Of a stretch of DNA of 64,000 nt, positions 39,041 through 41,784 are shown one piece after another. The notes under the pieces are model-generated. The model saw only the letters and a list, made by a program, of their open reading frames with translations, was not told the origin of the DNA and ran no database searches. The DNA lies in the NCBI RefSeq assembly GCF_013122565.1, contig NZ_CP053258.1; one strand, given 5' to 3'. This DNA comes from Escherichia coli (GTDB lineage Bacteria > Pseudomonadota > Gammaproteobacteria > Enterobacterales > Enterobacteriaceae). The position numbers were made by a program, and so were the translations under genes. Within the stretch, counting starts at the first letter, position 1. Every line of letters starts with the position of its first letter.

Positions 39041-40243
39041 ATGCAAAGTGTTGATGTAGCCATTGTTGGCGGCGGCATGGTGGGGCTGGCGGTTGCCTGC
39101 GGCTTACAGGGGAGCGGCTTACGCGTTGCCGTACTGGAGCAGCGCGTACCGGAACCTCTGGCGGTAGATGCACCACCACAACTGCGCGTTTCGGCTATCA
39201 ATGCCGCCAGCGAAAAATTACTCACCCGTCTTGGCGTCTGGCAGGACATTCTCTCTCGTAGGGCCAGTTGCTATCACGGTATGGAAGTGTGGGACAAAGA
39301 CAGTTTTGGTCACATTTCGTTTGACGATCAAAGCATGGGCTATAACCATCTTGGGCATATCATTGAAAACTCAGTGATTCACTACGCGCTGTGGAACAAA
39401 GCGCAGCAGTCGTCAGATATCACTCTGTTGGCCCCCGCAGAATTACAGCAGGTCGCCTGGGGAGAAAATGAAACCTTCCTGACGTTGAAAGATGGCAGTA
39501 TGTTAACGGCGCGTCTGGTGATTGGCGCGGACGGCGCTAATTCCTGGTTGCGCAACAAAGCCGATATTCCGCTGACTTTCTGGGATTATCAGCATCACGC
39601 GCTGGTGGCGACCATTCGCACGGAAGAACCGCATGATGCGGTGGCGCGGCAGGTTTTCCATGGCGAAGGCATTCTGGCCTTTTTACCGCTTAGCGATCCG
39701 CATCTTTGCTCGATTGTCTGGTCACTGTCGCCAGAGGAAGCGCAGCGGATGCAGCAGGCAGGGGAAGACGAATTTAATCGCGCGTTAAATATCGCTTTTG
39801 ATAATCGCCTGGGCTTATGCAAGGTTGAGAGCGAGCGTCAGGTGTTCCCGCTAACGGGGCGTTATGCGCGCCAGTTTGCCGCGCACCGTCTGGCGCTGGT
39901 GGGCGACGCCGCGCATACCATTCACCCGCTGGCGGGGCAGGGGGTAAATCTCGGCTTTATGGATGCTGCAGAGCTGATTGCTGAACTGAAACGGTTGCAT
40001 CGTCAGGGTAAAGACATCGGGCAGTACATTTACCTGCGTCGCTATGAACGTAGCCGCAAGCACAGCGCGGCGCTGATGCTGGCTGGTATGCAGGGATTCC
40101 GCGATCTGTTTTCCGGTACCAATCCGGCGAAAAAACTGCTGCGTGATATTGGTCTGAAACTGGCCGACACGCTTCCTGGCGTTAAATCACAACTTATCCG
40201 CCAGGCAATGGGATTAAACGATTTGCCTGAATGGCTGCGTTAA
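39041..40243 (+). CDS. ubiI: 2-octaprenylphenol hydroxylase
   Basis: 400 aa. Confidence 0.95.
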   Translation: MQSVDVAIVGGGMVGLAVACGLQGSGLRVAVLEQRVPEPLAVDAPPQLRVSAINAASEKLLTRLGVWQDILSRRASCYHGMEVWDKDSFGHISFDDQSMGYNHLGHIIENSVIHYALWNKAQQSSDITLLAPAELQQVAWGENETFLTLKDGSMLTARLVIGADGANSWLRNKADIPLTFWDYQHHALVATIRTEEPHDAVARQVFHGEGILAFLPLSDPHLCSIVWSLSPEEAQRMQQAGEDEFNRALNIAFDNRLGLCKVESERQVFPLTGRYARQFAAHRLALVGDAAHTIHPLAGQGVNLGFMDAAELIAELKRLHRQGKDIGQYIYLRRYERSRKHSAALMLAGMQGFRDLFSGTNPAKKLLRDIGLKLADTLPGVKSQLIRQAMGLNDLPEWLR

Positions 40244-40286
40244 AAATTTCTCTTCTGCTGTTTATTTGATACCCATCACACTTTCA

Positions 40287-40322
40287 TCTCCCGGTTTTTT
40301 CGCCGGGAGATTTTCCTCATTT
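40287..40322 (+). terminator. ubiI intrinsic terminator
   Basis: tctcccgg ttttttcg ccgggaga followed by ttttcctcattt. Confidence 0.65.
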
Positions 40323-40689
40323 GAAATAAACTAATTTCACCTCCGTTTTCGCATTATATTTTCTAATGTCACGAATTTTTGATTTAGTGTTTTTTGACAT
40401 TTTTTCAGCTCTTAATATTGCCTTATTCAAATTAACTCTCTCATCACATCATCTTTATATAGAAATTGGTGTGTTTTTTGGTTTTTTATTCCGTTGCGAT
40501 TTTGGCGTTTTTTAACCATAAGCTAATGTGATGATCAATTTTACCTTATGGTTAACAGTCTGTTTCGGTGGTAAGTTCAGGCAAAAGAGAACGATTGCGT
40601 TGGGGACCGGGAGTGGCTCCGATGCTGGGTTTCGTGGTGATAATTTCACCATGAAAAGTTGTCAGCCCCGCTTATTCAATGAGGACAAG

Positions 40690-41784
40690 ATGGCACAACA
40701 GACTCCTTTGTACGAACAACACACGCTTTGCGGCGCTCGCATGGTGGATTTCCACGGCTGGATGATGCCGCTGCATTACGGTTCGCAAATCGACGAACAT
40801 CATGCGGTACGTACCGATGCCGGAATGTTTGATGTGTCACATATGACCATCGTCGATCTTCGCGGCAGCCGCACCCGGGAGTTTCTGCGTTATCTGCTGG
40901 CGAACGATGTGGCGAAGCTCACCAAAAGCGGCAAAGCCCTTTACTCGGGGATGTTGAATGCCTCTGGCGGTGTGATAGATGATCTCATCGTCTACTACTT
41001 TACTGAAGATTTCTTCCGCCTCGTTGTTAACTCCGCCACCCGCGAAAAAGACCTCTCCTGGATTACCCAACACGCTGAACCTTTCGGCATCGAAATTACC
41101 GTTCGCGATGACCTTTCCATGATTGCCGTGCAAGGGCCGAATGCACAGGCAAAAGCTGCCACACTGTTTAATGACGCCCAGCGTCAGGCGGTGGAAGGGA
41201 TGAAACCGTTCTTTGGCGTGCAGGCGGGGGATCTGTTTATTGCCACCACTGGTTATACCGGTGAAGCGGGCTATGAAATTGCGCTGCCCAATGAAAAAGC
41301 GGCCGATTTCTGGCGCGCGCTGGTGGAAGCGGGCGTTAAGCCATGCGGCCTGGGCGCGCGTGACACGCTGCGTCTGGAAGCTGGCATGAATTTGTATAGT
41401 CAGGAGATGGACGAAACCATCTCTCCTTTAGCCGCCAACATGGGCTGGACCATCGCCTGGGAACCGGCAGATCGTGACTTTATCGGTCGTGAAGCTCTGG
41501 AAGCGCAGCGTGAACATGGCACAGAAAAACTGGTTGGTCTGGTGATGACCGAAAAAGGCGTGCTGCGTAATGAACTGCCGGTACGTTTTACCGATGCGCA
41601 GGGCAACCAGCATGAAGGCATTATCACCAGCGGGACTTTCTCCCCGACGCTGGGTTACAGCATTGCGCTGGCGCGCGTGCCGGAAGGTATTGGTGAAACA
41701 GCGATTGTGCAAATTCGCAACCGTGAAATGCCGGTTAAAGTGACGAAACCTGTTTTTGTGCGTAACGGCAAAGCCGTCGCGTGA
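40690..41784 (+). CDS. gcvT: glycine cleavage T protein (aminomethyltransferase)
   Basis: 364 aa from [11 protein letters not shown]. Confidence 0.95.

What the first reader, a model, noticed from the sequence alone, without database searches (positions are those of the whole stretch)
40512..40555. Perfect 11-bp inverted repeat in the gcvT upstream region
ttaaccataag and cttatggttaa are separated by 22 bp, about 135-180 bp upstream of the gcvT start codon inside a 446-bp AT-rich control region. The gcv operon is regulated by GcvA, GcvR, Lrp, PurR and CRP; this symmetric element is a candidate protein-binding site or leader RNA structure that I cannot assign.
Basis: seen in the sequence. Interest (0 to 1): 0.2.

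Follow-up and report, generated by a model that had tools for sequence, protein, structure and literature searches.

The report
Known GcvA repressor site at gcvT promoter
The inverted repeat is real, but it brackets the already mapped binding site 1 of the glycine-cleavage regulator GcvA just upstream of the gcvT promoter, so it is an ordinary, already explained control element and not a leader RNA structure.

Summary
TTAACCATAAG (40512-22) and CTTATGGTTAA (40545-55) are perfectly complementary, 22 bp apart, 135-178 bp upstream of the gcvT ATG (40690). A repeat like this arises by chance in about 0.3% of composition-matched 446-nt regions.

The window is Escherichia ubiH-ubiI-gcvTHP. The repeat is identical in K-12 and present in 5423 of 5426 complete E. 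coli genomes.

The repeat encloses the promoter-proximal CTAAT (40523-27) and an invariant LysR-type T-N11-A dyad, CAT-N11-ATG. It sits at about -74 to -31 of the gcvT promoter (extended -10 TGGTAAGTT 40569-77; PurR box 40585-600). [quoted passage not shown]

In 71 Enterobacteriaceae sequences only the inner 6 bp (CATAAG/CTTATG) are conserved. The outer 5 bp pair only in Escherichia. In Erwiniaceae and Yersiniaceae the right arm (-35 region) persists without the left arm.

Nothing supports an RNA structure: the repeat lies upstream of the inferred start, has no Rfam match, shows no covariation, and RNAalifold does not predict it.

Verdict: already known, low interest. The exact -69 to -34 coordinates come from my memory of Wilson et al. 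1995, which I could not read. The held literature confirms only the footprint sizes.

The parts
40512..40522 (.). Left arm of the inverted repeat (TTAACCATAAG). The inner CATAAG is invariant in Enterobacteriaceae. The outer part belongs to the left half (RRYCAT, 40514-19) of the T-N11-A dyad.
40523..40527 (+). CTAAT, the motif shared by all mapped GcvA sites. Here it lies directly next to the left arm, at the centre of the T-N11-A dyad.
   Evidence: Sequence. TAAT is invariant and C is present in 65/67 sequences. Literature. CTAATGT recurs at 40363 (D4).
40514..40536 (.). LysR-type dyad RRYCAT-N11-ATGRYY (E. coli AACCAT...ATGATC; family consensus GGTCAT...ATGACC). This is the presumed recognition site of a GcvA dimer.
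   Evidence: CAT/ATG pairs are kept in 65-67 of 67 sequences. The flanking three positions are restricted to mirrored purine/pyrimidine classes.
40545..40555 (.). Right arm (CTTATGGTTAA). It overlaps the -35 region of the gcvT promoter and is a third ATGRYY copy (40548-53). It is conserved even in Erwiniaceae and Yersiniaceae.
40517..40552 (.). Inferred extent of GcvA-binding site 1 (published footprint -69 to -34), taking +1 at about 40586.
   Evidence: Inference. The coordinates are from memory of Wilson et al. 1995. Anchoring uses.
40569..40577 (+). Extended -10 element TGGTAAGTT of the gcvT promoter. The inferred transcription start is at 40584-40586.
   Evidence: A conserved block in the alignments. 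The simple consensus scan found no promoter, as expected for an activator-dependent one.
40585..40600 (+). PurR operator AAGAGAACGATTGCGT.
   Evidence: The same 16-mer is listed for gcvT-gcvH-gcvP in the PurR regulon paper PMC3159470. It is conserved.
40331..40367 (+). The two upstream CTAAT motifs (40331-35 and 40363-67, 32 bp apart), which correspond to the activating GcvA sites 3 and 2.
   Evidence: The spacing to the right arm is fixed at 214-215 and 182-183 bp across Enterobacterales.
40690..41784 (+). gcvT coding sequence (aminomethyltransferase).

Best explanation
The repeat marks GcvA-binding site 1 of the gcvTHP promoter. It is a double-stranded DNA operator, not an RNA element. The left arm plus the adjacent CTAAT form a LysR-type T-N11-A recognition dyad (RRYCAT-N11-ATGRYY) centred near -60. 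The right arm lies over the -35 region (about -41 to -31) and carries a third copy of the same ATGRYY core. GcvA bound here, in the published model together with GcvR when glycine is low or purines are present, occupies DNA from about -69 to -34. It thereby interferes with RNA polymerase at the -35 region and represses gcvTHP. Activation works instead through the upstream CTAAT sites 3 and 2, with Lrp. What is shown here: the sequence features, their conservation, and their position relative to the -10 element and the PurR box. What is taken from the literature: GcvA binding, the CTAAT requirement, and the repression-only role of site 1. What is inferred: that both arms are GcvA contact elements. 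The perfect 11-bp symmetry is an Escherichia-specific extension of a 6-bp conserved inverted core and is probably not required as such.
For: 1. A CTAAT and a T-N11-A dyad, the two published hallmarks of GcvA sites, lie inside the repeat and are invariant in 67 distinct Enterobacteriaceae sequences.
2. Wilson et al. reported GcvA footprints of 35 bp and 57 bp upstream of gcvTHP. The three CTAAT motifs at 40331, 40363 and 40523 can all fall inside footprints of -271/-214 and -69/-34 only if +1 lies at 40581-40592.
3. That range agrees with the conserved extended -10 at 40569-77 and with the PurR box at 40585-600, confirmed.
4. Site 1 is required for repression and not for activation (title of Wonderling et al. 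2000, cited).
5. The stretch 40508-40689 has no substitution against K-12, versus about 17 in 40244-40507. The 58-nt stretch is found in 5423 of 5426 E. coli genomes.
6. Variation at 40514-16 and 40534-36 is restricted to mirrored purine/pyrimidine classes, as expected for a dimer-binding dyad.
7. The inner 6 bp of both arms are invariant. A 6-bp inverted match between two short conserved blocks is unlikely by chance (my rough estimate is below 1%).
Against: - The exact footprint coordinates (-69 to -34) and the start site come from my memory of papers that are not held. No tool gave a measured transcription start.
- The register of GcvA half-sites in site 1 is ambiguous. The ATTA-N7-TAAT or ATTAG-N5-CTAAT form seen at gcvB and at site 2 fits site 1 only as ATAA-N7-TGAT.
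- Covariation in the T-N11-A dyad does not exceed the shuffles.
- The right arm is conserved in taxa that lack the left arm. Its conservation may owe more to promoter function than to GcvA.
Confidence: 0.8

Rival explanations
1. Coincidental composite. The left arm belongs to the GcvA recognition dyad and the right arm is simply the -35 region of the promoter. On this reading their complementarity has no function of its own.
For: The right arm is conserved in Erwiniaceae and Yersiniaceae without any left arm or nearby CTAAT. The outer 5 pairs are Watson-Crick in only 5-21 of 68 Enterobacteriaceae sequences.
Against: The inner 6 bp are complementary and invariant in both arms throughout Enterobacteriaceae, which is unlikely by chance. 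The published footprint reaches -34, that is, into the right arm.
Confidence: 0.12
2. The two arms are bound by a different symmetric factor, for example the LysR-type regulator Nac or an unmapped protein.
For: Nac is reported to bind the gcvTHP transcription unit (PMC4299494). ATA-N9-GAT at 40518-32 resembles the Nac ATA-N9-TAT box (the box is from my own knowledge).
Against: The location of Nac binding is not given. The arm centres are 33 bp apart, which is atypical for a single dimer. The GcvA hallmarks already explain the conservation.
Confidence: 0.05
3. A hairpin in a plus-strand transcript (a leader or a ubiI read-through RNA), or a DNA cruciform.
For: As single-stranded DNA the stretch folds at -7.3 kcal/mol, z = -2.8. 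In other genera the left arm GGT could still form G-U pairs with the invariant right arm, giving 91.7% of cells 'paired' if G-U is allowed.
Against: - The repeat lies upstream of the inferred start site and downstream of the ubiI terminator hairpin at 40286-40311.
- It has no Rfam match.
- The percentage paired does not exceed the shuffles (496 of 500 shuffles as high).
- RNAalifold gives a consensus energy of only -0.54 kcal/mol and does not predict the helix.
- The purine/pyrimidine restriction is mirrored in the T-N11-A partner columns, which a protein dyad explains.
- There is no U-tract after the stem.
Confidence: 0.03

Closest known systems
GcvA-binding site 1 of the E. coli gcvTHP promoter (Wilson, Urbanowski & Stauffer 1995; Wonderling et al. 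2000)
   Same: Same locus and the same sequence as K-12. It contains the CTAAT and T-N11-A features. Its position matches the 35-bp footprint next to the -35 region.
   Different: Nothing differs in substance. The 11-bp perfect symmetry of the flanks is a descriptive detail that I could not find mentioned in the held literature.
GcvA operator in the gcvA-gcvB intergenic region (ATTAG-N5-CTAAT, IR1 at -65 and IR2 at -43 of gcvB)
   Same: Same regulator. Both have a LysR-type dyad with a T-N11-A frame and a CTAAT-like half-site.
   Different: At gcvB the CTAAT-like pentamer is a half-site of a 15-bp dyad (ATTAGTTTTTTTAAT). In gcvT site 1 the CTAAT sits at the centre of the CAT-N11-ATG dyad. The site is also centred about 5 bp closer to the start, over the -35 region, which fits repression rather than activation.
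Generic LysR-type regulator RBS/ABS promoter architecture
   Same: A strong symmetric recognition site near -60 plus a weaker promoter-proximal site that overlaps -35.
   Different: Here the proximal element is better conserved than the distal one and predates it phylogenetically.
Glycine riboswitch upstream of gcvT in Bacillus and Vibrio
   Same: Same gene context (gcvT upstream region).
   Different: No match to any Rfam family here. The element lies upstream of the promoter. Enterobacteria regulate gcvT by proteins.

Membership tests
GcvA (LysR-type) binding site | T-N11-A dyad | tested here: met
   T40519-N11-A40531 lies within CAT-N11-ATG. These three pairs are kept in 65-67 of 67 distinct Enterobacteriaceae sequences.
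GcvA (LysR-type) binding site | Contains 5'-CTAAT-3' | tested here: met
   CTAAT at 40523-27. TAAT is invariant and C is present in 65/67 sequences.
GcvA (LysR-type) binding site | Falls inside the DNase I footprint of purified GcvA (site 1, -69 to -34) | tested here: inconclusive
   The position is inferred from the extended -10, the PurR box and the requirement that all three CTAAT motifs fall in the reported footprints. The footprint sizes are confirmed. The coordinates are recalled from memory, because the primary paper is not held.
GcvA (LysR-type) binding site | Binds GcvA and mediates GcvA-dependent regulation | not testable with these tools
   This needs EMSA, footprinting or reporter assays. 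It was reported for this locus in K-12 by Wonderling et al. 2000 (cited).
cis-regulatory leader RNA / riboswitch | Match to a curated RNA family | tested here: not met
   cmscan of 39800-41200 at E-values up to 10 gave only sub-threshold noise.
cis-regulatory leader RNA / riboswitch | Helix supported by compensatory changes | tested here: not met
   Only 2 cells have double-sided changes, and the measures do not exceed the shuffles. The RNAalifold consensus lacks the helix.
cis-regulatory leader RNA / riboswitch | Lies within the transcribed 5' leader | tested here: not met
   The repeat ends 14 bp upstream of the extended -10 (40569-77) and 30 bp upstream of the PurR box that overlaps +1. The start site itself is inferred, not measured.
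Intrinsic terminator | G+C-rich short-loop hairpin followed by a T-run | tested here: not met
   The terminator scan found none in 40200-40720. The stem is A+T-rich, the loop is 22 nt and no T-run follows.

The most novel reading that the evidence does not exclude
Site 1 may be three evenly spaced copies of one GcvA contact element (RRYCAT at 40514-19, ATGRYY at 40531-36 and at 40548-53, in 17-bp steps). The outer two would form the inverted repeat. The distal two copies plus CTAAT would have been added only in Enterobacteriaceae next to an older, promoter-embedded copy. On this reading GcvA-dependent repression at the promoter is a family-specific innovation built by mirroring a pre-existing -35-region element. 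The geometry (outer contacts 34 bp apart) would be unusual for a LysR-type tetramer.
Probability: 0.2. Interest if true: 0.3.

Novelty: already known. Interest (0 to 1): 0.1.

Why it matters
It matters little beyond annotation. The finding rediscovers, from sequence alone, one of the best-studied bacterial control regions. The useful result is the assignment: the symmetric element is the GcvA repression operator, not an RNA leader.

There is also a small comparative observation. The upstream activating sites and the -35-region arm keep a rigid spacing across Enterobacterales. The promoter-proximal CTAAT and the left arm are confined to Enterobacteriaceae. This could guide anyone studying how repression by a LysR-type regulator was layered onto an older activation mechanism.

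Tried and rejected
- **Primary papers.** I tried to read the primary footprinting and genetics papers (PMID 7665470 / PMC177269, the Microbiology 2000 DOI, PMC93593, PMC107511, PMC11081524, PMC4288677). None is held.
- **Measured start site.** I looked for a measured gcvT start site in the supplements of PMC3415461 and by text searches. Nothing usable turned up.
- **Other held papers.** Several mention GcvA but give no site coordinates.
- **Promoter and terminator scan.** The simple scan found nothing in the region. This is not informative for an activator-dependent promoter with an extended -10.
- **RNA hypotheses.** Rejected.
- **ATTAG-N5-CTAAT frame.** I tried to fit site 1 to the frame derived for gcvB. 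With CTAAT as the right half, the left half (TAACC or TGGTC) does not match, so I did not adopt that register.
- **Lrp site.** I considered an Lrp site in the spacer. It matches the recalled consensus at only about 10/15, and the recalled Lrp footprint (-229 to -92) ends upstream of the repeat. Rejected.

Full report
**Observation**

The sequence is as described. TTAACCATAAG occupies 40512-40522 and its exact reverse complement CTTATGGTTAA occupies 40545-40555, with 22 bp between them. The symmetry extends inward to 14/15 (I1).

- The gcvT ATG is at 40690 and the ubiI stop codon ends at 40243, so the intergenic region is 446 bp with 36.8% G+C.
- Only 0.3% of 4000 composition-matched simulations of that region contain a perfect inverted repeat of 11 bp or more with a spacer of 40 or less.
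- The 64-kb window holds six such loci, against about one expected.

**Identity of the locus**

The window is Escherichia ubiH-ubiI-(yqfI)-gcvTHP.

- The intergenic region matches 5425 of 5426 complete E. coli genomes at 90-99% identity.
- It aligns to K-12 MG1655 with the repeat unchanged.
- From 40508 to the ATG there is no substitution against K-12 and only a 1-nt indel. The upstream 264 bp carry about 17 substitutions.
- A 58-nt stretch around the repeat is found in 5423 of 5426 genomes, and is identical in 4270.

**What lies inside and around the repeat**

- Directly after the left arm comes CTAAT (40523-27). CTAAT also occurs at 40331 and 40363, and CTAATGT is shared between 40363 and 40523 (D4).
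- The held literature states that the GcvA site is a T-N11-A dyad containing CTAAT (PMC3658693).
- It also states that Wilson et al. 1995 found one 35-bp and one 57-bp GcvA footprint upstream of gcvTHP, that CTAAT is needed for binding and negative regulation, and that site 1 is required for repression but not activation (PMC5002191; titles cited).
- Downstream of the repeat are a conserved TGGTAAGTT (40569-77, an extended -10) and the 16-mer AAGAGAACGATTGCGT (40585-600). That 16-mer is listed verbatim as the gcvTHP PurR operator in PMC3159470.

**Placing the footprint**

I could not read the primary papers. From memory the coordinates are:

| Element | Position relative to +1 |
|---|---|
| GcvA site 1 | -69 to -34 |
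| GcvA sites 3 and 2 | -271 to -214 |
| PurR | about -3 to +17 |
| CRP | centred at -313.5 |
| Lrp | -229 to -92 |

The footprint sizes (35 and 57 bp) agree.

- If each of the three CTAAT motifs must lie in its footprint, +1 is confined to 40581-40592.
- The extended -10 and the PurR box put +1 at 40584-40586.
- A CRP-like TTTGA-N6-TCACA at 40265-80 is centred at -313.5 if +1 is 40586.
- Site 1 then spans about 40517-40552, inside the repeat (40512-40555, that is -74 to -31).
- This mapping is inference resting partly on recalled numbers, but the anchors agree with each other.

**Comparative evidence**

One scan of GTDB species genomes with the GcvT protein returned 80 loci from Enterobacteriaceae, Erwiniaceae and Yersiniaceae.

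- The block CATAAGCTAATGTGATG and the block CTTATGGTT are nearly invariant in 67 distinct Enterobacteriaceae sequences.
Pairs 2-5 from the outside are Watson-Crick in only 5-21 of 68.
- Most genera read GGTCATAAG on the left, against CTTATGGTT on the right. The perfect 11-bp symmetry is therefore an Escherichia feature.
- A second symmetry is general: RRYCAT-N11-ATGRYY (40514-19 and 40531-36), which is the T-N11-A frame centred on CTAAT.
- Variation at 40514-16 is 85% transitions, against 38% in the other variable columns. The partner columns 40534-36 show the mirrored restriction.
- That pattern fits a dimer-binding dyad. It also removes the only hint in favour of RNA pairing, namely G-U compatibility.
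- The right arm carries a third ATGRYY (40548-53), 17 bp after the second.

**Outgroups**

- In nine Erwinia, Winslowiella, Pantoea, Rahnella, Edaphovirga and Serratia loci, CTTATGGTTAA and the -10/PurR block are retained.
- The left arm and the proximal CTAAT are absent in all nine.
- Across all 81 sequences a CTAAT lies 214-215 bp upstream of the right arm in 76, and 182-183 bp upstream in 31. A CTAAT lies 22 bp upstream only in Enterobacteriaceae (67 sequences, 0 of 9 outgroups).
- The distance from the right arm to the ATG ranges from 102 to 224 bp.
- So the right arm is an old, promoter-fixed element. The distal half of site 1 is younger.

**RNA and other alternatives**

- Rfam gives nothing.
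- As single-stranded DNA the stretch folds at -7.3 kcal/mol, z = -2.8.
- Pair counts do not exceed shuffles.
- RNAalifold gives -0.54 kcal/mol and omits the helix.
- No terminator-like site is present.
- The repeat lies between the ubiI terminator hairpin (40286-311, I9) and the inferred gcvT start, so no known transcript contains it.
- Nac is reported to bind the gcvTHP unit and might share the dyad. The location is not given.

**Mechanism**

The most likely mechanism (0.8) is that this is GcvA site 1.

- A GcvA oligomer recognises the T-N11-A/CTAAT dyad near -60 and reaches to the -35-region arm.
- With GcvR it blocks productive RNA polymerase binding.
- Glycine relieves this, and activation proceeds from sites 3 and 2 with Lrp.
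- Binding and the regulatory role come from the literature. The assignment of the arms as contacts is my inference (about 0.5).

**Verdict**

The element is already known and of low interest. The comparative details (rigid spacing, family-restricted distal half, three cores spaced 17 bp apart) are minor additions.

Noticed in passing
window 40317-40400 (minus strand): The 27-codon small-protein gene yqfI (detected by epitope tagging, PMC6001520) is intact here: MSKNTKSKIRDIRKYNAKTEVKLVYFK, versus NNG in K-12 at residues 9-11. Its coding DNA contains the two upstream CTAAT motifs that correspond to GcvA sites 3 and 2, so a coding sequence and activator sites overlap.
   Followed up: partly
window 40331-40555; loci L002-L081: The distance from the distal CTAAT to the right arm is fixed at 214-215 bp in 76 of 81 Enterobacterales loci. 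The distance from the right arm to the gcvT ATG varies from 102 to 224 bp. This points to a strict phasing requirement between the upstream activator sites and the promoter.
   Followed up: partly
L071, L073-L075, L077-L081 (upstream of gcvT): Erwiniaceae and Yersiniaceae keep CTTATGGTTAA, the -10 and the PurR box. They lack the promoter-proximal CTAAT and the left arm, so the equivalent of GcvA site 1 appears confined to Enterobacteriaceae.
   Followed up: partly
window 40265-40280: TTTGA-N6-TCACA, a CRP-like site. If +1 is 40586 it is centred at -313.5, the position I recall for the published gcv CRP site.
   Followed up: no
window 40286-40311: A perfect 9-bp G+C-rich hairpin (ATCTCCCGG/CCGGGAGAT, 8-nt loop) followed by TTTTCC. 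It is probably the ubiI terminator. The simple terminator scan missed it.
   Followed up: no
window 40244-40689 versus K-12 (L001): Divergence within E. coli is uneven. There is no substitution from 40508 to the ATG, only one 1-nt indel at about 40651, against about 17 substitutions in 40244-40507. No complete E. coli genome exceeds 98.9% identity over the 446 bp, so the strain is not in that collection.
   Followed up: no
window 40518-40532: ATA-N9-GAT resembles the Nac ATA-N9-TAT box. A held paper reports Nac binding to the gcvTHP unit without giving the position (PMC4299494).
   Followed up: no
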